From the human T2T-CHM13v2.0 reference genome, Homo sapiens: DNA of 64,000 nucleotides. Positions 30,450 through 51,405 of this stretch are shown here, one piece after another; the first letter of the stretch is position 1, and each line of letters opens with the position of its first letter. The translations under genes were made by a program, and so were the position numbers. The notes beneath the pieces are model-generated. The model did not search any database. It worked only from the letters and a program-made list of their open reading frames with translations, and was not told the DNA's origin. The DNA lies in assembly GCF_009914755.1 (NCBI RefSeq), contig NC_060925.1; one strand, written 5' to 3'.

Positions 30450-30737
30450 AGCCAGGTGCGGTGGCTCATGCCTGTAATCCCAGCACTTTGGGAGGCCAAG
30501 GCGGGTGGATAACCTGAGGTCAGGAGTTTGAGACCAGCCTGGCCAACATGGCGAAACCCTGTCTCTATTAAAAATATAAAAACTAGCCAGGCTTGGTGGT
30601 TGGCACCTGTAATCCCAGCTACTCAGGAAGCTGAGGCAGGACAATTGCTCGAACCCAGGAGACAGGGGTAGCAGTGAGCCAACATGGTGCCACTGAACTC
30701 CAGCCTCAGTGACAGAGTGAGACTCTGTTTAAATAAA
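30450..30737 (+). mobile_element. AluS (Sx/Sz-like)
   Basis: Full Alu. TSD agaaaaattttatttt / agaaaaatgttatttt. Confidence 0.92.
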
Positions 30738-30761
30738 AGAAAAATGTTATTTTAAAAATCT

Positions 30762-31061
30762 GGCTGGGTGCAGTGGCTCACGCCTATAATCCCAGCACTT
30801 TGGGAGGCCGAAGGGGACAGATCTCTTGAGGCCAGGAATTCAAGACCAGCCTGACCAACATGGTGAAACCCCATCTCTACTAAAAATATAAAAATTAGCC
30901 AGTTGTGATGGTGCACACCTGTAATCTTAGCAACTCAGTAGGCTGAGGCAGGTGAATCTCTTGAACCCAGGAGGTGGAGGTTGCAGTGAGCTGAGATAAC
31001 ACCACTGTACTCCAGCCTAGGTGACAGAGTGAGATCCTGTCTCAAGACAGAATAAAAATAA
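30762..31061 (+). mobile_element. AluS/J (Sz-like)
   Basis: Full Alu. TSD aaaaatct at 30754-30761 and 31062-31069. Confidence 0.9.
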
Positions 31062-32206
31062 AAAAATCTATCCTCATCCAGTAGTATTTTTAAGGAAACA
31101 TTGGTCTGCCTTGATGATGCCAGAAGATTGATTGCAAGTAGTAAAAGAATATGTGAGAATGGAGTTCATGGTAAAGATATTTGGTCAGCATTTTCCATCT
31201 TTAATTAGAGACAATGAAACAATTTTGTAAATTACAAATCATAAATTAGTATTTTTTTGTTTCAGTGACTATCTTCATTCAGTGTAACTTAAAAAAATTA
31301 AAATTTTCTTGTTTAAAATTTACAAAACTAGGTGGAAAAATATAAATAATTCAGCTTTCAAATATATATATTTTTCAGTTTATAGCATGTATTTATACTT
31401 CTGAAGTTATGAAAGCTTAAAATTAGGCTAAAATTTATAGGCACCCTCTGCTCAAATGTGGCCTGAAAAAGAATCATTTAATGCACAATGATTAGGTACA
31501 GGAGAAAAAATAAAGGAAGAAGATTATTTGTAGAGAGGACAAAAGAAAAAGTATTTAAATGAATAAATAAATGGTTCAAATGATTTATTTTGGTAAAATT
31601 AGAATGGGACTGAACAATTCAATGTACATTTTACATCAAGGAGGAGATCATTATTTTATTTGAATGTTGCAAGTAGAAGTAAGTTTCCCAAATGGTATAT
31701 AGGACATGAAAAAATAAAGACAGAGATGGTAATTCACACCATAAAGATGAGAAAGGACAGAAATTGGGGAGTAGCTAGGAGAGTTCAAAGTTAAGTAATG
31801 AATTTTACTTTTGGTGTTTGTGTATAGTTTTTAGTATATTTCAAATATGAACAGACTTTTCAGCTGATAATGAAGGATCCAATGAAATGGAAGTGAAAGA
31901 TTACAAACATAGAAGATAAATAATTGAGCAAAATTCTGAAGTAAATGAAAGTGACCAAATCAGGATCTGAAGTAAAGGACAAAGCCTTAAAAGTAGATTA
32001 GAGGACAAAAAGATAGATTTGTAGGTTTATAGGCATAACTCTTTTATATTGTTTGCTAAGCAAATTATATTTTTAAGCCATTCTTGTATTTTCTATTTAT
32101 ATCAGACATGGCATGAAATTCAGAATTATTCAAGTTCAAATTCTAGCGACTACCTATTAGCTGAGGGATGGTAGAGCAAATAACATTCATGAAAAATTGG
32201 TTCTCT

Positions 32207-32652
32207 TGTAGCAGGACCAGTCTCAGACAAAACCTTTCAGACACCACTTTTAGGAAGGAAGAGGCTTTAATCAGCTGGGAGCATTGGTAGACTCGCATCT
32301 CAAGATCCGAGCTCCTTGATGTAAAGATTCCTCTCCCTTTAGGGCTTACAACTCTAAGGGGTCCAAATGAAAGGGTCGTGATACATTGTGCAAGCAGAGG
32401 CTACATGACTGAGGGCTACATGTCTCAGTGATGGGGGCTAGCAGAATAGAACAGAAAGTTTCACAATGCTTCCTCATACAATGTCTAAAATCTATAGATA
32501 ACACAAGCGGTTAGGTCAGGAGCTGATCTTTAACTACCAGGCCTGGTTCTTGGCACCAAGCCATCTGGCTGTTGATCTCACTTCTGCTTCTTTTTAACTT
32601 TTTGCTTCCTTTTTGAAACAGGAGACAATGGGAGAGGTGGTCTCCTTCCTTA
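32207..32652 (-). repeat. 3' LTR (LTR2 family)
   Basis: Minus strand TAAGGAAGGAGACCACC...CCTGCTACA, preceded by polypurine tract AAGTGGGGGAA (32653-32663). Confidence 0.95.
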
Positions 32653-32677
32653 TTCCCCCACTTGAGAATCTCACTTA

Positions 32678-34736
32678 TTAGTGGGAATTCTCACTTTCAT
32701 CCTCACTATCTACATCTTTCTGCGAGACAGACCGATAGTGATTCATGTAATACACTTGTGCTGAACTATTTTGGTGAACCAAGGTAGTGACAAAGCTTTT
32801 CATTATTTGAAGGAGCAAGGGCAGCAAGCAGGAGAGCAATAAACAGGTTCCTATCACTATTATTACCCCTATTATAAGAGTTTTAAATCCTCCTAATGCT
32901 GGGAACCATTTTCCAAATACAGACCTAGGATCAAATCTATGCCAAACCTGCACAGGCACATGTGCTAGCTTTGTCATATCTCTGACTATGTTTTTGACTA
33001 CTTGCCCTTGGTCATCTATATGCAGACAGTAATTGGTCAGGTTGAATTTTCCACAGACCCCTCCTTCAGCTGCTAGCAAGTAGCCTAGGGCCAATCTATT
33101 TTGATAAATAGCATTTCTCATCTGGGCTTCTTGCCGGTCTAGAATAGTCAAAGCTCTGCCAGTTTCATTAGTGATTATTTCTAACACAGCTTGTAACCAT
33201 ATAATCCAGTTGAGCATGTAAATGGGGGTTCGGTATCCCCACGAAAAGTTTTGTGCCCATGTGGCAGGCCCATAGTACTGTATCATTCTTTCAAGGGACC
33301 ACTAGTCAACTTTCCAATTGCCTATGGCTATGCCCCTCTTTTCTTAGGAAGCATAGACAGGGAAGCCTAGGAGCTCACCTGTTTTTACCGGCAGCAGGAA
33401 AAAAGGATGTTTTAATGGTGCCAATAACAAAAACTGCCTGCCCATTGATCAGGTAGCTTGGCATGGGCTCTGTGTCCACATATCCAGTATAGCCCAGCTG
33501 GAGCTGTCCAGTCCTGATTAAACCCTGGATGGGCCCAAACAGTTTGCAACTTACTAAACTTACTAAATGGGTTTTTCTCAGTATGGTTTAGACCTCACCA
33601 GGTGACTGTTCTTGTGCTGTTATACAGCTTTTGCCCTAGGCAATTGAGTCTTCCTATGGGGATGGTGAAGTCTTTTCTTCTCTAGCTATGCAGTATTGTC
33701 CAATAATTGAGGTTTCGAAGACCCAAAAGTTACCAGTGTGGGCCTTCTGGACTGGAATTATATCAGGAACTGGATCCATGGGCACTAATTCTCGGGCCTC
33801 CCAAGGCCATTGGTCTCCCACAGTGGTTCCCCTGTATACATAATAGGAAGTAACATTGAGGAAATGGGCTTCATTTTCTGCTAACTGCAGGAACAAATTT
33901 TTTGTCTTCCTTCAGAGTTCTGGTACTGGCACATTCAGTTCATCATAAAAGGTGTGGAATACTGGTTTGGGACTGCACTTGTGGATCTCCCCTTGGACTA
34001 AAAAGTTGACTCGGGGGTCAAGCACAGTTCCATCAATTCCTAGGTTTACATTTTCCCCTGTCTTCCATTGGGGGTCCAGGAAGTTAGCAATTATTAATTC
34101 TAATGGGTTACAGTTACTGGAGGTGCAAGACGAATTACTTTTTCTTTTTGTAGGTGAGCAGCGTCTTTTTTGTCCTTTTTCAGGTAGCCCAAATGACACA
34201 GGACCAATAACTACATTCAATACCACATAGTCCTAATTCATGACAAATGTACTTATTTTCTGCCTTATAGCTTTTTTCCCAACTGAGAGAACCACATCCC
34301 ATCCCTAGCTTGTTACTATTAATGACTGCACAGGCATCAGATCTTAAGGTGACTTGTTTGGGAACCCCTTTTTCTTCTGTTCTGGTTAATACTTTACTTG
34401 TAACTTTCACGGGTCCCCACCAGTCCTCAGTTCTTAATCTTATTTCAAAAAACTGTGGTCATAGGAGGCTCAGACGGGTTGTAACACACATCAGGTTGGT
34501 CATTCCCTGTGCCACATACTTTATACTTCAGTGGCATTATATAAGCAAGTCCCTTTCAAAGTTCCTAGACATTCTTAATATCTATAAAACAGAAAGATTG
34601 TTTTAATTTGTTCCCTTACCTCAGTAACTTGATTAATACACTGGGTACAGTCCTCCCTGTGGGGAAAATCAGCTGAAGTTTTTATTGTACAAGTCCAAAT
34701 TCTAAAGAGAATGAGTCCCACAATGAGTTTCCTCGT
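32678..34736 (-). pseudogene. env: HERV-E env, disrupted; TM portion open for 202 aa (32678-33286)
   Basis: Signal-peptide-like (T)RKLIVGLIL with ACG at the expected start. SU is fragmented. Furin site reads *EKR/GIAIGNW. Immunosuppressive domain [18 protein letters not shown], then a hydrophobic anchor. Confidence 0.9.
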
Positions 34737-34759
34737 GTTTTGGCGGTGGGTAGACAAGT

Positions 34760-37700
34760 GAGCTTCCGGGTGTGACTGGAGCAGGTCTTGTCGTCTTCTT
34801 CAGGATCACTTTGCAGGGATTTTCCGGGCTTGGTTTTACCTCCCAGGCTTCAGGTGCTGCAGGTTTCAGGCGGCTGTGGTGGATCCAGGCCGGAATTCCT
34901 TCTACCTTCATGGCGGTGGGTGTGGTCAGGATGACACTCTGGGGTCCTTTCCACCGCGGCTGCAAAGGGGCTACATTCCAGTCTTTGATCCACACTCGAT
35001 CACCTGGGGAGAAAGGGTGAACTGGGGAGAATAAGCTAACGGGGCATTTTTCATTTACCCAGGCCAAAATTGTTCATGTAACTTTTCCTAAAACCTGCAG
35101 CTGTCGCTGTAACTCAATTTCTCCTAGCTCTCAAGGAGTGCCTGGAAGCCCCCATAATATGGGAGGGGGTCTATGATACAATATCTCACAAGGAGAATAT
35201 CCTGTTCTTTTAGAAGGGGTGCACCTGATCTTAAACAGTACTATGGGGAGAGCCTGTGCCCACTTTAAACATGTTTGTTGACACACTTTCCTTAAACTAC
35301 TTTTGATAGTCCATTTGCTCCACCTTTCTGGAACTCTGAGGTCAGTAGGTGGCATGCAGTTTCCATGTGATCCCCAATACCTTCTGTGTCTTCTGTACCG
35401 AGTCAGCCACAAACACCAGCCTGTTGTGTGAGCCGATCTGTAAGGGCAGTCCAAATCTAGGGATGAAATCTTGGAGAAGCACACGGGTTACTTCACGAGC
35501 TTTTTCAGTTCGTGTTGGATAGGCCTCTACCCATCCAGAGTAGGTACACACTAGACCTAGCAGATACTTGTTACCTCCACACTTAGGCATCTCAGTGAAA
35601 TCCACTTGGAGATCTTCAAAGAGGGCTGATCCATAAGCTTGTATGCCAGGCGGGACAGTTGGACCCTGCCTAACATTGTGCTGCCGGCAGGTGACACCTT
35701 GCTCTGTTACCGTTTTGGCAAGGGCCGACAGACGTGAAATGTAGAAGTACCAGCCTAACAACTTTTCAAGTGACTCTTGGCCTAGATAGGTGGTCTCATG
35801 CACAGCCAGCACAGCTGCAGCTCCCAGTAGCTGTGGCACGGCTACTCTTCCGTCTGGTAACTGGATCCTTCCTTCCTTTATCGCTTGCTCCCCCTCTGCC
35901 TGGAAAAAGTCTCTTTCCTCTTTAGAATAAGCAGGCACTAGATCAGGTGCCTGAGGGAGCAAGGCGGCTGTGACTGATGCTCGGTATTGGGTGGATGCTG
36001 CTTTGTAAGCTTCTGAGTCTGCTTGAGAATTTCCTAAGGCAACAGAAGTGGTGGCTTGCTGATGTCCTTTACAATGCATGACGGCCACCCTCCGAGGCTT
36101 TCATACTGCTTTTAATAACTGTAAAATTTCTTGCTGGTATTTAATGTCCTTTCCCCCTGAGTTCAACAGGCCTTTTTCTTTGTATAATGCCCCATGCACT
36201 TGGAGGGTTAAAAAGGCATACCGAGAGTCCATACAAATGTTTACAGTCTTACCTTCACTTAGCTCTAAGGCCCAAGTTAAAACAGTGAGTTTGGCGTTTT
36301 AGGCTGAAGTTCTGTGAGGCAGCGGTTTGGCTTCAATAACAGTGTCCAAGGTTACCATTGCCTATCCAGCGCACCTCTCTCCTTGTGGGTTAATGAAGCT
36401 GCTTCCGTCCACATATAGCTCCCAGTCTACAAATGTCCAAGGTTGGTCCCGGAGGTTGGGTCTGCTAGAATAAACTGAGTCCAACACCTCTATACAGTTA
36501 TGCTCAACTGGACTCTCTGATACCGGGAGCAAGGTGGTGGGGTTCAAAGTGTTGCAAACTTCAATGGTTATGCGGGGATTTTCACAGAGCAAGCTTTGGT
36601 ATTTAACCTGGCATTTGTTAGCCAATGATATCCTTTGGTATTCATTAAAGTTACCACAGCATGGGGGGCCTTTATGTTCAAGTTTTGCCCAAGGGTTAGT
36701 TTATCTGCTTCTTGCGCTACCAGGGCAGTTGCTGCCAAGGCTCTCAAACGCGGGGGCCACCCTTTAGAAACCCCATCTAGCTGTTTGGAGAGATATGCCA
36801 CTGGTCTTGGCCAGGGCCCTACAGTCTGGGTTAAAACTCCAGCTGCCATCTTTTCTCTCTCTGACACATACAGTGTAAAAAGCTTTGTCAGATCCAGTAG
36901 TCCAAGGGCTGGGGCTGACATAAGCTTTTTCCTTTAACTTATGAAAAGCTCACTGTTGTTCGGATCCCCAATTAAAAGGTTCCGTGTTGCCCCCCTTTGT
37001 AACTTGGTACAGAGATTTGGCCAGTACTTCAAAGCTTGGGATCCATAACCTGCAGAACCCCACATCTCCTAAGAATTCTGTTACCTGCCTCCTGGTCTTA
37101 GGTTCTGGTAGACTGGAAATGACCTGCTTTCGTTCTGATCCTAGGCTGCACTCCCCGTGTTGGATAGTGAATCCCAGGTAGCGTACCTGCTGTCTGCAGA
37201 TCTGAGCTTTCTTCTTGGACACGTTATATCCACAGTCCTCTAGGTGCCGAAGCAGGGTGTCCATTCCTTTAGCGCATCCAACTGCCGTGGGGTGTCCCAG
37301 CAGAAGGTCATAAATGTTCTGGAGCAAGATGCAGCCTAGGTCTCTAGTGGGGAACTTTTGGAGGCCTGGAGGTCTCAAGCCAGTGCCTCCCCAAAGATGG
37401 TGGGGGAGTTCTTGAACCCTTGGGGAAGCCGGGTCCAAGTATACTGAGTGGTGACACCTGACCCCAATCCTCCCACTGAAAGGCAAACAGTTTCTAGCTC
37501 TCTGAAGCTAATCTGATGCTAAAGAAGGCATCCTTCGGGTCTAGGCAGGTGAACCAGCTGTCCTCAGCTGGCAGTAACCCCAACAATGTGTACGGGTTAG
37601 GTACTGTTGGATGTAAAGTCACTGTGGCTTGATTGACCAAGTGCAAGTCCTGCACTGGTCTGTAGTCCTTGGTCCCTGGCTTGGGAACAGGCAGGAGGGG

Positions 37701-38349
37701 AGTGTTCCATGGAGACTGACAAGGCACTATAATTCCAAAAGTCCTCAGGCACTTAAGATGAACCTGGATACCTTCCAGGGCTTCTCTGGGGATTGGATAC
37801 TGTTTTTTCCTGACTGACTGGTTCACTGGCTTAACTTCTATGAGTATGGGAGCTTGATTGACTGCCAATCTGGGGGGGATTGTCTTCTGCCCAGATTTTT
37901 GGCCACCACTGGGCCAGAGCTGGCCCTATCTCTTTGCCTGGTTCAGTTAGGAAGAGTCGCCACTCTTCCTCTCAGGGAACCATCAGGACCATGATAACTC
38001 CTGTTCCAGGCAACTTCAGTTGTAAAGAGCCTTGGTTTGTAAAGGAGATAGTAGCTCTCAGCTTGCTAAGCAGGTCCCTTCCTAACAAAGGCAAGGGGCA
38101 GTCAGGCATGTACAGGAACTGGTGAATCACTTCATGTCCCCGCACTCAGCAGGTCCGGGGCAAACAGAAAGCCTGCTTTGTTGAAACTCCTGTTGCTCTG
38201 ATTATATCAATAGACTTTTTAGATAAGGGGGTGACTGGGGTGGTCACTACTGAATGTTCAGCACCAGTATCAACCAGAAAGTTAATGTCCTTGCTCCCAG
38301 CTGTCATTCTGACCATAGGCTCCTTGGGGGCACTTGAGCCGGGTCCCCT
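34760..38349 (-). pseudogene. pol: HERV-E pro-pol (PR, RT, RNase H, IN), multiply disrupted
   Basis: Protease FLVDTGA and LLGRDLL. RT SPWNTPLLPV and KDAFF, with YxDD decayed to NIYD. RNase H YVDGSS. Integrase LQVDFTEM and WKGP. Confidence 0.93.
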
Positions 38350-40016
38350 TCAGTCCAGCAACCACTCGGCCAGATTGAACAAGCTTCCTTCGTCCTTGTC
38401 TGGGGACTTTTGCTCCAAGCCACGTTGCTTTTCTTTTAGCTGAGGGCACTTATCTTTCCAATGTCCTATTTCTTTACAATAGGCACACTGGTTACATTGC
38501 AAGCATGGACAGTCAGACTGGGTATTCTTCCCGGAGCCCCCCTTCCCTTGTCCTTTTGGGGAGACCCCTCTAATAGCTGCAGCTAGTAGGTCAGCATTTT
38601 GTCGGGCTTGGCGTTCACCTTCTTTGCGGCTCTTTCTGCGGCTCGCTGCATCTCTGTTTACAAACACTTGGCTAGCTATTTCCAGTAATTGCGACACATT
38701 CATACCCACAAACCCAGCCTGTTTCTGCAGCTTTCTCCTAATATCCTATGCACTTTGGCTAACTAAGGCCATGTTAATCATGAGCTGACTCTCATGGCTG
38801 TCAAAGGGAGTGTACATGCAGTAGGCCTCACACAGTCACTCACAAAATTGCGTTGGACTTTCTTCCTTTCCTTGGATAACCTCAGAGACCTTGTTTAAGT
38901 TTGCGTCCTTTTGGGCTCCTCTCCCCAACCCTTCTAAGAGTGCTTCCCTATACCGATTTAGCCTTTGCATGCCCTCTGTCTTGTTTGGATCCCACTGAGG
39001 GTCAGTTCCTGGTAGCTGGATTCTCACATACTCTTGGGAGTTGTGATAATCAGCTGGAACATGCTCTTCCAGCCACTTAGTTGCTGCCTGGACCACTCTC
39101 CTTCTCTCATCCGTGTTAAAGAGGTACATGAGCAACTTGTGGCAATCAGCCCAAGTGGGGTTATGAGTTTGGATAACAGTTTGCAGCAAGTCATTAAGAG
39201 CTTGTGGCTTTTCGGTACAGGATGGGGTGTTATTTTTCCAATTGAAGAGATTGGCAGAAGTAAAAGGTTGATACACAAAGACACACCTTTCTACCATATG
39301 TCCCTCCTCGTTTACCCCAGTATACCATTGTTCTCTTAAGGGCATTTGTATCCCAGTTTTAGGTTGCAAGCGAGCTGCCAAGGGAGGGGTTTCTCCCGAG
39401 ATTTCACATCTTCTTCTGTCTATTCTAGGCGGTCTTGGGGTGTGCGTACCTTGTAGAGGCTCAGGTGCTGCGGGCTACGTGACTGAGGGGTACATGCATC
39501 AGTGATGAGGACTAGCAGAACAGACAGAAGGTTTCACAATGCTTCCTCATACAATGTGGGGAACCTCTCTTCTTGGTAAGGGCAGGGCACCACTGGTGCC
39601 ATTTCCTGCCATGCATCCTCTGATGTGGAGTCAGACAGAACCGTAGGAGCTGACTTCCCTTGGCGGGCAGAGTAAGATTTTTCCTTGGCTGTCTGTCCCT
39701 TTGCTACTAGCACTGCTGCTGCCTGTACTCTTAGCCACTGTGGGGGTTCTAAAACCAGCTGCAACCAAGTATCTATGTATAGAAACTGATCTGAGTGTCC
39801 TGATTTACCCGTTACTTTGTGCCATACCTTTGAAACTAGGGACCTGTCTAGGCTTCCTTCTGATGGCCATCCCACTTCTAATGCTGGCCAATTTATCTCA
39901 CACAAAGCCTTAAGCTTTCCAGGTGTCATAGCAGTTCCATAGTCTCCATTGAATCCTTTCTTGAAACTCTTTAACGTAGTTCCTAATGGGGTAGGCTTAC
40001 TCTGTGTTTTACCCAT
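38350..40016 (-). pseudogene. gag: HERV-E gag (MA-p12-CA-NC) with two nonsense codons and one frameshifting insertion
   Basis: MGKTQSKPTPLG myristoylation start, GWPSEGS MA motif, MHR-like VIQGKEESP, zinc knuckle CAYCKEIGHWKDKC. Confidence 0.93.
39472..39557 (-). repeat. 86-bp exact copy of 5' LTR U3 (40819-40904) embedded in gag
   Basis: Base-by-base comparison gives 86/86 identity. Confidence 0.97.
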
Positions 40017-40109
40017 TTTCCTCTCTCAGGGGACAAAACAACACTCTTACCACAAAGAGGGAAGGGAAAAGGGGTAAAAAGTCACTCACTCACCAAGCAA
40101 TTCACACCA

Positions 40110-40280
40110 GATCAAAATTAAAACTAAAACCAAACGACGGATAAGGAGTTACTCATTCATCAAGCAATTTGAGCCAAATCAGAACCGAAATCAAAACCAA
40201 AACAATTCAAATCCAAAAGTCAGAACTGAAATCAAAACCAAAACAGTGCAAATCCAGTCAAAATCAAAACCAAAACCAAA
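40110..40280. repeat. Imperfect tandem repeats (aaatcaaaaccaaaac core, ~41-bp unit) in the proviral leader
   Basis: tcagaaccgaaatcaaaaccaaaaca and tcagaactgaaatcaaaaccaaaaca repeated. Confidence 0.85.
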
Positions 40281-40602
40281 GTGCCGGTAAAGGCATGCTG
40301 TGGGTGATCAGGCCACACTTCCACTAAGATGGAGTGGGCAAATTCCAAGACCAGCCTTACCGTGTTCCAGATGTCCAGACTCTAAGCACCAATTCTTCCC
40401 AGTGTTCAGCTGCTGTGTTAATCCTCTGCGGGGGTCTGCCGCACACTCCTCTGGCAAGGCATTCCAGGGAGGCAATTGCCTATGCTGGAGCACTCTCAGG
40501 AACCATGTCGCTTAAGCTGGCCGGAGTCCCCTCCAGAGATGCTCCACAGGGCAGGCTTAAGCTGCCTAAGGGGCTGCCTCCACTCTCCATTAATCACCTT
40601 GC

Positions 40603-40620
40603 TTCCCGGCCAGGGAGCCA
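40603..40620 (-). promoter_or_regulatory. Primer-binding site, tRNA-Glu
   Basis: TGGCTCCCTGGCCGGGAA versus tRNA-Glu complement TGGTTCCCTGACCGGGAA (16/18), 5 nt after the LTR. Confidence 0.9.
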
Positions 40621-40625
40621 AGAAA

Positions 40626-41073
40626 TGTAGCAGGACCAGTGGCAGACAAAACCTCTCAGACACTGGTTTTAGGAAGGAAGAGGCTTTAATCAGCTGGGAG
40701 CATTGGTAGACTCACATCTCAAGATCCAGGCTCCCCAAAGTAAAGATTCCTGTCCTTTTTAAGGGCTTACAACACTGAGGGGTCCACAAGAAAGGGTCAT
40801 GATACATTGTGCAAGCGGGGGCTACGTGACTGAGGGGTACATGCATCAGTGATGAGGACTAGCAGAACAGACAGAAGGTTTCACAATGCTTCCTCATACA
40901 ATGTCTGGAATCTATAGATAACACAAGCGGTTAGGTCAGGAGTTGATCTTTAACTACGAGGCCTGGTTCTGGGCACCAAGCTGTCTGGCTATTGATCTCA
41001 CTTCTGCTTCTTTTGAACTTTTTTGCTTCCTTTTTGAAACAGAAGACAATGGGAGAGGTGGTCTCCTTCCTTA
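40626..41073 (-). promoter_or_regulatory. 5' LTR (LTR2 family) with TATA-like CTTAAAAA, ATTAAA poly(A) signal and a TACGTG HRE core at 40823-40828
   Basis: Direct repeat of the 3' LTR (~90% identical), adjacent to the PBS. Confidence 0.93.
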
Positions 41074-41200
41074 CTCTCATTTTAAAATGTAGACAATAAT
41101 TTCTATCTTAAAGTGTTCCTGTAATAAATAAATGAGACAAGGTTTTCAAAAATATGTAGTAGAGTATCTGGCAAAATGGAAGATGCTGAGCTAATGTGTT
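41074..41200 (+). mobile_element. MIR, right half (left half at ~32105-32206), split by the provirus
   Basis: The rejoined site ggttctctcattttaaaatgtagacaataat...aaatgaga resembles the MIR core gtttcctcatctgtaaaatggggataata. Confidence 0.7.
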
Positions 41201-51100: not shown

Positions 51101-51405
51101 GGCCAGGTGGAGTGACTCACCCCTGTAGTAATCCCAGCATTTTGGGAGGCTGATGTGGGAGAATCGCTTGAGCCCAGGAGTTTCAGACCAGCCTAGGCAG
51201 CATGGCAGGACCCTGTCTCCACCAAAAATAAAATAAACAAAATTATCTGGGCTTAACGGTGCATGCCTGTGGTCCCACCTCCTTGGGAGGTTGAGGCAGG
51301 CGGATCACTTGAGTCCAGAAAGTCGAGGCTGCAGCGAGCCATGTTAGCACGACTTTACTTCATTCTGGGAGAAAGAGTGAGATCTTGTCTCAAAAATAAG
51401 TAAGT
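51101..51405 (+). mobile_element. AluJ
   Basis: cgcttgagcccaggagttt and gaggctgcagcgagcc J-type arms; diverged. Confidence 0.88.

What the first reader, a model, noticed from the sequence alone, without database searches (positions are those of the whole stretch)
39472..39557. Exact 86-bp copy of the 5' LTR U3 pasted into gag long after integration
Seen: 39472-39557 equals 40819-40904 at 86/86 bases, in the same orientation and 1.35 kb away. The matching part of the 3' LTR differs by about 9 substitutions and 1 indel, and the copy carries the 5'-LTR base at every one. Known: LTRs are identical at integration, so a reverse-transcription error would predate all LTR differences. Inference: this is a much later, locally templated insertion (polymerase-theta end joining or template switching), with microhomology at both junctions (gggct on the left, gt on the right) and a few gag bases lost. 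It may be human-specific or polymorphic.
Basis: partly seen in the sequence, partly recalled or inferred. Interest (0 to 1): 0.8.

Follow-up and report, generated by a model that had tools for sequence, protein, structure and literature searches.

The report
LTR piece copied into HERV-E gag
A dead HERV-E provirus on human chromosome 1 carries an exact 86-base copy of its own upstream LTR inside gag, a late DNA-repair or replication scar of a known kind that the LTRs' own mutations allow us to date.

Summary
Window 39472-39557 equals 40819-40904 at 86 of 86 bases.

The setting is a gammaretrovirus-like HERV-E-type provirus on the minus strand, about 32207-41079. The copy lies in gag between the MA and CA domains.

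The gag site was aligned in 26 other distinct loci and none has the insert. In the two closest relatives the flanks are 3 nt apart. So 77 nt of LTR replaced 3 nt, a net gain of 74 nt. Microhomology is GGGCT on one side and probably ATGT on the other.

The two LTRs differ at 10 columns inside the segment, and the copy has the 5'-LTR state at all 10. Polarised with 8 related LTRs, 4 of these are clearly derived in the 5' LTR, 1 is ambiguous, and 5 are derived in the 3' LTR. The copy was therefore made late: within the last ~30% of the provirus's life (95% bound), median ~7-8%.

No other place in the assembly spans the junctions or matches better than the provirus's own 5' LTR.

This is a microhomology-mediated templated insertion, a new member of a known kind. 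Its single 77-nt tract copied from 1.35 kb away does not fit typical polymerase-theta scars. Whether it is human-specific or polymorphic could not be tested here.

The parts
39472..39557 (.). 86-bp copy of 5'-LTR U3 inside gag. 39477-39553 (77 nt) comes only from the LTR. 39472-39476 (GGGCT) and 39554-39557 (ATGT) are shared with the gag flanks and count as microhomology.
   Evidence: 86 of 86 identity to 40819-40904. Absent from the gag site in 26 other distinct loci. Only the window's own locus spans both junctions in the assembly.
40819..40904 (.). Donor segment in the U3 of the 5' LTR. It is intact, so the event was copy-and-paste.
   Evidence: It is colinear with 8 to 21 related LTRs. It is the best match to the insert in the whole assembly; every other LTR scored is at most 90% identical.
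40626..41079 (-). 5' LTR of the provirus
   Evidence: Alignment with the other LTR. It reads TG...CA on the minus strand and is followed by a PBS-like stretch.
32207..32660 (-). 3' LTR of the provirus. Its segment at about 32398-32484 is the homologue of the copied piece.
   Evidence: 41 substitutions in 448 aligned columns against the 5' LTR, K2P 0.0986, 4 indel columns. Sequence read.
40603..40620 (-). PBS-like 18-mer four bases after the 5' LTR
   Evidence: Read. Its likeness to the 3' end of tRNA-Glu (16 of 18) rests on a recalled tRNA sequence, not on a call. PMC4379568 states that HERV-E uses tRNA-Glu.
39534..40025 (-). Open frame with the gag matrix domain. It ends at a stop codon that lies inside the insert (39534-39536).
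   Evidence: Pfam Gag_MA, E 7.7e-15. Translation through the insert.
38836..39474 (-). Open frame with the gag capsid (p30) domain, in a different frame from the MA piece
   Evidence: Pfam Gag_p30, E 9.3e-30. Frames.
39413..39426 (.). 14-nt stretch, 46-59 nt left of the insertion point, that is 13 of 14 complementary to 40864-40877 inside the donor. A possible helper of the template switch; this is a lead only.
   Evidence: I2. 3 of 1000 dinucleotide shuffles of the two 100-nt flanks reach 13 of 14. The 3' LTR gives 10 of 14, and 8 other proviruses give 9-11 of 14.

Best explanation
Long after a HERV-E-type provirus integrated, a DNA end or a nascent strand stopped in gag at ...GGGCT. It re-paired by that 5-nt microhomology with the provirus's own 5' LTR 1.35 kb away (same chromatid, sister or homologue) and copied one continuous tract of 77 nt or slightly more. 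It then returned to gag through a second microhomology (ATGT) and synthesis or joining was completed. The result is a dispersed direct duplication in which 77 nt of U3 replace 3 nt of gag, a net gain of 74 nt. This adds a frame break and a stop codon to an already defective gag. Shown: the identity, the direction of transfer (LTR to gag), the microhomologies, the intact donor, and the late date relative to integration. Inferred: that a break or stalled fork started it, and which polymerase did the copying. I favour a replicative or gap-filling template switch (FoSTeS/MMBIR or SD-MMEJ class) over classical polymerase-theta end joining. No function is expected. It is a neutral scar in a gene desert.
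For: The match is exact at 86 of 86 and both copies are direct. Transfer went from LTR to gag. All related LTRs carry the segment, while 0 of 26 other distinct gag loci do, and none of the 76 matches other than self covers query positions 181-252. In the two closest relatives the flanks read GGGCT + 3 nt + ATGT, giving 5-nt and 4-nt microhomologies with chance values of about 1e-3 and 4e-3. The insert shares 4 clearly derived 5'-LTR states (40837 G, 40855 A, 40858 A, and a 1-nt deletion after 40870) plus 1 ambiguous state (40877 G), and shows zero differences since the copy was made. The posterior for the copy's age as a fraction of the provirus's age has median 0.07-0.08 and 95% bound 0.28-0.31. 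The own 5' LTR is the best donor in the assembly; of 77 candidates 40 were scored, and all other LTRs are at most 90% identical. 0 of 10 other HERV-E-type loci fetched show an LTR fragment inside the internal region at 95% identity or more. Microhomology-flanked templated insertions are an established germline class in humans (PMC8421209 and PMC6902434, passages).
Against: No second human or ape assembly could be consulted, so neither the age nor the reality of the insert outside this one assembly is independently checked. The clock rests on only 4-5 events in 86 bp, assumes a constant rate, and uses a flat prior. The right-hand microhomology depends on which relative stands in for the lost pre-insertion sequence: 2 nt with distant copies, 4 with the C6 provirus, 6 with the C1:217.98 Mb provirus. 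The event fits neither operational definition in print. TMEJ insertions are 3-30 bp with short local tracts. MMB-TIs as searched by MMBSearch are inverted and lie within 100 bp of their template.
Confidence: 0.85

Rival explanations
1. The LTR piece entered gag early, at reverse transcription or soon after integration, and a recent gene conversion between the 86-bp copy and the 5' LTR made the two identical again.
For: Direct repeats 1.35 kb apart on one chromosome can in principle exchange sequence. It would also yield 86 of 86 identity and shared derived states.
Against: It needs two events instead of one. The conversion would have to cover the whole 86 bp of a short, already diverged homology; the usual minimum homology for efficient mammalian recombination is above 100 bp (recalled, not tested). 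None of the 26 other gag loci has an old version of the insert, so it was not a feature of the infecting lineage.
Confidence: 0.06
2. The insert is a classical polymerase-theta (TMEJ) scar of a double-strand break in gag. After long resection, the left 3' tail annealed to the exposed minus strand of the LTR on the other end, was extended, fell off, and re-annealed near the break. This is a special case of the best explanation, differing only in the enzyme and route named.
For: The geometry works: a direct copy, a template on the far side of the break within resection range, and microhomology at both joins. Direct-repeat templated insertions that use the second resected end as template are described for Pol theta (PMC7165422, passages).
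Against: The same paper gives 3-30 bp for such insertions, single tracts rarely above 10 bp, and local templates. Here there is one uninterrupted tract of 77 nt or more copied from 1347 bp away, which suggests a more processive polymerase. Sequence alone cannot name the enzyme.
Confidence: 0.25
3. The insert is not a germline variant of the species. It is an assembly artefact or a change private to the sequenced cell line.
For: Zero divergence is compatible with an age of zero. The posterior gives 0.09-0.21 for an age under 0.5 My. Only one assembly could be examined.
Against: The junctions are clean and microhomology-bounded, and the donor is intact. That looks like biology rather than misassembly. 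An error in a finished telomere-to-telomere assembly at a non-repetitive junction is unlikely; this is a judgement, not a test.
Confidence: 0.04
4. The piece was copied from an RNA (transcript-templated repair), or by reverse transcriptase during the original infection.
For: Proviral transcripts carry U3 sequence at their 3' end, and reverse transcriptase switches templates readily (general knowledge).
Against: The insert matches the 5' LTR, not the 3' LTR, at all 10 differing columns, including 4 clearly derived ones. Normal proviral RNA contains the U3 of the 3' LTR only. A reverse-transcription-time copy would predate all LTR differences: P(0 differences) is about 2e-4.
Confidence: 0.02

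Closest known systems
FoSTeS/MMBIR-type template switching and its templated insertions (PMC8421209 and PMC6902434; passages read)
   Same: An insertion copied from nearby sequence, with microhomology at both joins. One search reports an average of 3.7 bp and a range of 2-12 bp; here the values are 5 and about 4. Such events are present as germline variants in normal humans. The donor is left intact.
   Different: The signature used by MMBSearch is an inverted copy of a template within 100 bp. Here the copy is direct and the template is 1347 bp away. No larger rearrangement is attached.
Polymerase-theta end joining templated insertions (TINS) (PMC7165422; passages read) and SD-MMEJ (PMC2943611; search listing only)
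   Same: Prime at a microhomology, synthesise, dissociate, and re-anneal at a second microhomology. The direct-repeat class uses the other resected end as template.
   Different: TINS are 3-30 bp with tracts rarely above 10 bp and templates close to the break. Here there is a single tract of 77 nt or more from 1.35 kb away.
HERV-E proviruses, closest to the 8792-bp provirus at C6:89870589-89879380, which matches in size and rough position the 6q15 'CT-RCC HERV-E' of PMC4379568 Table 1
   Same: LTRs 88-90% identical and gag 87-92% identical in the 100-nt flanks of the site. Same domain order on Pfam.
   Different: That provirus and all other copies examined lack the LTR piece in gag. The provirus here is not among the 46 elements of that table. 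Equating the C6 locus with the named provirus is my inference from size and position.
Non-allelic gene conversion between LTRs or repeats
   Same: Non-reciprocal copying of a short tract between nearby sequences on one chromosome.
   Different: Gene conversion needs homology already present at the recipient. Here the recipient site had only 3 unrelated nucleotides between the microhomologies.

Membership tests
HERV-E (class I, gammaretrovirus-like endogenous retrovirus) | LTR-gag-pol-(env)-LTR layout with gammaretroviral domains | tested here: met
   Gag_MA, Gag_p30, zf-CCHC (weak), RVT_1 (below cut-off), RT_RNaseH, rve and MLVIN_C lie in order on the minus strand between two 450-bp LTRs. No env domain was found by Pfam in 4 ORFs at 32678-34458.
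HERV-E (class I, gammaretrovirus-like endogenous retrovirus) | Primer binding site for tRNA-Glu (PMC4379568) | tested here: inconclusive
   An 18-mer at 40603-40620 (minus strand) follows the 5' LTR. Its 16 of 18 likeness to tRNA-Glu is judged against a recalled sequence only.
HERV-E (class I, gammaretrovirus-like endogenous retrovirus) | Sequence similarity to named HERV-E elements | tested here: met
   88-90% LTR identity to the provirus at C6:89870589-89879380. Its length of 8792 bp equals that of the 6q15 CT-RCC HERV-E in Table 1 of PMC4379568. The LTR subgroup (LTR2, 2B or 2C) was not determined.
Polymerase-theta templated insertion (TINS) | Inserted bases identical to flanking DNA, with microhomology at the priming site | tested here: met
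   86 of 86 identity; GGGCT and ATGT at the joins.
Polymerase-theta templated insertion (TINS) | Size 3-30 bp, single tracts rarely above 10 bp, template local to the break (PMC7165422) | tested here: not met
   One tract of 77-86 nt with the template 1347 bp away.
Polymerase-theta templated insertion (TINS) | Dependence on POLQ | not testable with these tools
   This needs genetics or biochemistry.
MMBIR templated insertion (MMB-TI as defined for MMBSearch, PMC8421209) | At least 10 bp, with microhomology of 2-12 bp at the junctions | tested here: met
   77 nt; 5 nt and 2-6 nt of microhomology.
MMBIR templated insertion (MMB-TI as defined for MMBSearch, PMC8421209) | Inverted copy of a template within 100 bp | tested here: not met
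   Direct copy, 1347 bp away.
Non-allelic gene conversion | Homologous sequence already present at the recipient site | tested here: not met
   0 of 26 other gag loci have LTR-like sequence there. In the two closest relatives, 3 nt lie between the flanks.
Reverse-transcription-time rearrangement | The copy predates all differences between the two LTRs | tested here: not met
   The insert carries 4 clearly derived 5'-LTR states plus 1 ambiguous state. P(identity if copied at integration) is about 2e-4.

The most novel reading that the evidence does not exclude
The donor site was not picked at random. A 14-nt stretch of gag, 46-59 nt from the insertion point, is 13 of 14 complementary to the middle of the copied LTR piece. 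This match exists only because of the 5' LTR's own late mutations. It may have held the two places together in single-stranded DNA, or held the donor duplex open, and so directed a long (77 nt or more) template switch over 1.35 kb. If the insert is also human-specific or still polymorphic, it would be a naturally dated germline example of structure-guided donor choice in templated insertion.
Probability: 0.15. Interest if true: 0.45.

Novelty: new member of a known kind. Interest (0 to 1): 0.27.

Why it matters
This is a clean, single-tract, kilobase-range templated insertion in the human germline. It comes with a built-in clock: the two LTRs were identical at integration, so their private mutations date the copy relative to the provirus without any other genome. 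That makes it a neat teaching case and a useful calibration point. Tools that mine such scars currently look for short or inverted local templates and would miss this one. It has no expected biological effect. The provirus is long dead and lies in a gene desert, with no gene annotated within 100 kb according to the hub's annotation.

Tried and rejected

(2) I looked for a cleaner donor elsewhere in the assembly. A junction-spanning 151-bp query found only the window's own locus across both joins, and no LTR above 90% other than the provirus's own 5' LTR. Of 77 candidates, 40 were scored.

(3) I looked for the same insert in other copies. 0 of 26 distinct loci have it in the aligned gag site. 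Three loci (L010, L016, L030) dropped out of that alignment because my script found no paired flank hits. Their matches also leave query positions 181-252 uncovered.

(4) I surveyed 10 other HERV-E-type loci for LTR fragments inside the internal region. None appears at 95% identity or more. My L067 stretch showed no LTR pair and probably missed the provirus's limits. L070 has no 3' LTR.

(5) The target-site duplication is not clean. The four bases outside the LTRs read AAAA and AGAG on the minus strand. I did not pursue this.

(6) I tested the idea that the copied tract ran further right, with patchy repair. Gag 39563 is A here and G in all 32 aligned rows, and the LTR has A in register at 40910. 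However, the two bases between (39558-39559) are gag-like, so an independent G-to-A change is simpler.

(7) An RNA template and a reverse-transcriptase origin are rejected on the LTR-state argument.

(8) Literature searches were aimed at mechanisms and at HERV-E in general. I made no search for this specific locus beyond reading Table 1 of PMC4379568, which does not list it.

Full report
**Observation.** Window 39472-39557 and 40819-40904 are identical at 86 of 86 bases, in the same orientation and 1347 bases apart. The exact match stops at both ends. The next nine bases agree at 6 of 9 (D6).

**Setting.**
- Two 450-bp repeats at 32207-32660 and 40626-41079 are the LTRs of one element.
- Stop-to-stop frames on the minus strand carry, from high to low coordinates, Gag_MA (39534-40025, E 7.7e-15) and Gag_p30 (38836-39474, E 9.3e-30).
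- These are followed by a weak zinc knuckle, two RVT_1 pieces (below Pfam's cut-off), RT_RNaseH, rve and MLVIN_C.
- The provirus therefore reads on the minus strand. The LTR at 40626-41079 is the 5' LTR, and the insert lies in gag between matrix and capsid.
- Four bases after the 5' LTR comes an 18-mer (40620-40603 on the minus strand) that looks like a tRNA-Glu primer binding site. That comparison is against a recalled tRNA sequence, so I count it as inconclusive.
- Family placement rests on similarity. The closest relatives in the same assembly are 88-90% identical in the LTR and 87-92% identical in the 100-nt flanks of the gag site.
- One of them, C6:89870589-89879380, is 8792 bp long. This is exactly the size that PMC4379568 Table 1 gives for the 6q15 'CT-RCC HERV-E' (section 5 read). 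Equating the two is my inference from size and position.
- The provirus studied here is not among the 46 elements of that table.
- The copied piece is LTR positions about 176-261, upstream of the U3/R boundary that the paper places at 298-337. 'U3' is therefore right.

**Direction of transfer and junctions.** Every related LTR examined carries the segment in place: 21 and 8 over the full length. The LTR is therefore the source, and it is intact.

The gag site was aligned in 32 rows, which represent 26 distinct other loci, and none has the insert. Three further loci (L010, L016, L030) fell out of my script for lack of paired flank hits. In one search itself, none of the 76 matches other than self covers query positions 181-252.

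In the two closest relatives the flanks read GGGCT, then three bases, then ATGT. So 77 nt that can only come from the LTR (39477-39553) replaced 3 nt, a net gain of 74 nt. GGGCT (5 nt) is shared on one side and ATGT (4 nt) on the other. With more distant relatives as the stand-in, the right-hand overlap shrinks to GT. With the C1:217.98 Mb provirus it grows to 6 nt.

The matrix reading frame runs into a stop codon inside the insert at 39534-39536. The provirus is broken in many other places too; pol is split over several frames.

**Timing.**
- The two LTRs differ at 41 substitutions in 448 aligned columns (28 transitions, 13 transversions; K2P 0.0986) plus 4 indel columns.
- With the 0.3% per million years used in PMC4379568, this gives about 30-33 My. 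Other commonly used rates give 21-49 My.
- Inside the 86 bp the LTRs differ at 9 substitutions and 1 indel, and the insert has the 5'-LTR state at all ten.
- That alone would not prove lateness, because all ten could have arisen on the 3' LTR. I therefore polarised each difference with 8 LTRs of the same subfamily.
- Five changes are derived on the 3' LTR (40819, 40826, 40844, 40845, 40868).
- Four are derived on the 5' LTR (40837 G, 40855 A, 40858 A, and a one-base deletion after 40870). For each of these, 8 of 8 outgroups side with the 3' LTR.
- One is ambiguous (40877 G; 2 of 8 outgroups have G).
- One caveat: at 40855 and 40858, more distant LTR subfamilies show A. They differ throughout that stretch, and the 3' LTR plus all 8 close relatives show G, so G at integration is the parsimonious reading.
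- The insert therefore inherited 4 or 5 mutations that the 5' LTR acquired after integration, and neither copy has changed since.
- Taking the LTR-wide rate (4.2 expected changes per lineage per 86 bp over the provirus's life), a copy made at integration would be identical to today's 5' LTR with probability of about 2e-4.
- With a flat prior, the copy's age as a fraction of the provirus's age has median 0.07-0.08 and 95% bound 0.28-0.31.
- In years, P(younger than 6.5 My) is 0.70-0.96 and P(younger than 0.5 My) is 0.09-0.21, depending on the assumed age.
- These figures rest on few events and a constant rate. The hominoid slowdown would push the age up somewhat.

**Uniqueness.** A 151-bp query spanning both junctions finds only the window's own locus across the joins. 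The next best match is the provirus's own 5' LTR. All other LTRs scored are at most 90% identical; 40 of 77 candidates were scored. In 10 other HERV-E-type loci fetched as controls, self-comparison shows LTR-LTR pairs and some unrelated repeats, but no LTR fragment inside the internal region at 95% identity or more. Two of those stretches were imperfect controls: L067 showed no LTR pair and L070 lacks a 3' LTR.

**Mechanism.** The anatomy is that of a microhomology-mediated templated insertion:
1. A 3' end stops at GGGCT.
2. It pairs with the same five bases in the LTR.
3. It is extended for 77 nt or a little more.
4. It lets go and re-pairs through ATGT at the original site.

Two concrete routes fit. 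In the first, a double-strand break in gag with resection beyond 1.4 kb exposes the minus strand of the LTR on the far end. The left 3' tail anneals there, is extended, and snaps back. In the second, a nascent strand at a stalled fork, or during gap filling, switches template and returns.

Both routes give a direct copy and leave the donor intact. The sequence cannot tell them apart or name the polymerase.

Set against what is in print, the event sits between categories. Polymerase-theta templated insertions are described as 3-30 bp, with tracts rarely over 10 bp and local templates (PMC7165422, passages). The MMBIR insertions mined in human genomes average 3.7 bp of microhomology but are defined as inverted copies within 100 bp (PMC8421209, passages). 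Iterative template switches with small templated insertions are well known at human germline rearrangement junctions (PMC6902434, passages). I therefore file this as a template-switch insertion and treat the polymerase-theta label as a less likely special case.

**A lead noticed on the way.**
- Gag 39413-39426, which lies 46-59 nt from the insertion point, is 13 of 14 complementary to 40864-40877 in the middle of the donor.
- Only 3 of 1000 dinucleotide shuffles of the two 100-nt flanks reach that level.
- The 3' LTR reaches 10 of 14, and 8 other proviruses reach 9-11 of 14 with their own LTRs.
- The match exists because of the 5' LTR's private one-base deletion and the G at 40877.
- It could have brought the two sites together in single-stranded DNA, or held the displaced strand of the donor open.
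I give it low odds.

**Rivals.**
- *Early insertion followed by recent gene conversion.* This explains the same data with two events and a short, diverged homology. An ape orthologue carrying a diverged insert would favour it.
- *RNA template or reverse-transcriptase origin.* This fails because the insert follows the 5' LTR rather than the 3' LTR, and normal proviral RNA carries only the 3' U3.
- *Assembly artefact or cell-line-private change.* This cannot be excluded from one assembly, but it is unlikely given the clean, microhomology-bounded joins.

**Verdict.** My additions are the outgroup polarisation, the exact junction anatomy, a quantitative date, and the caution that the event does not look like a typical polymerase-theta scar. 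It is an ordinary kind of mutation in a dead provirus in a gene desert. It is interesting mainly as a self-dating example and for its unusually long single tract and distant donor. Whether it is human-specific or polymorphic remains the open and easily answered question.

Noticed in passing
window 39413-39426 and 40864-40877: A 14-nt inverted complementarity (13 of 14) links the gag flank and the middle of the LTR donor. It is private to this provirus's 5' LTR. 3 of 1000 flank shuffles reach this level. The 3' LTR gives 10 of 14, and 8 other proviruses give 9-11 of 14.
   Followed up: partly
window 39563: Gag has A here where all 32 aligned rows of other copies have G. The LTR has A in register at 40910, six bases beyond the exact match. 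This is either an independent G-to-A change or a trace of a longer copied tract.
   Followed up: partly
window 40072-40280: The leader between the PBS and gag holds degenerate tandem copies of an A-rich unit of about 40-67 nt (D7 at 90% identity; D1 at 62-73%). I did not check whether other HERV-E copies share it.
   Followed up: no
window 41080-41083 and 32203-32206: The four bases just outside the two LTRs (AAAA and AGAG on the minus strand) do not form a clean target-site duplication.
   Followed up: no
window 30455-31056 and 51128-51236: Alu-like repeats lie next to the provirus: two copies 312 bp apart at 78% identity, with a third related piece at 51.1 kb (D1, D2).
   Followed up: no
window 32678-34458: Four minus-strand open frames where env should lie gave no Pfam match at E up to 0.01. 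The state of env was not examined.
   Followed up: no
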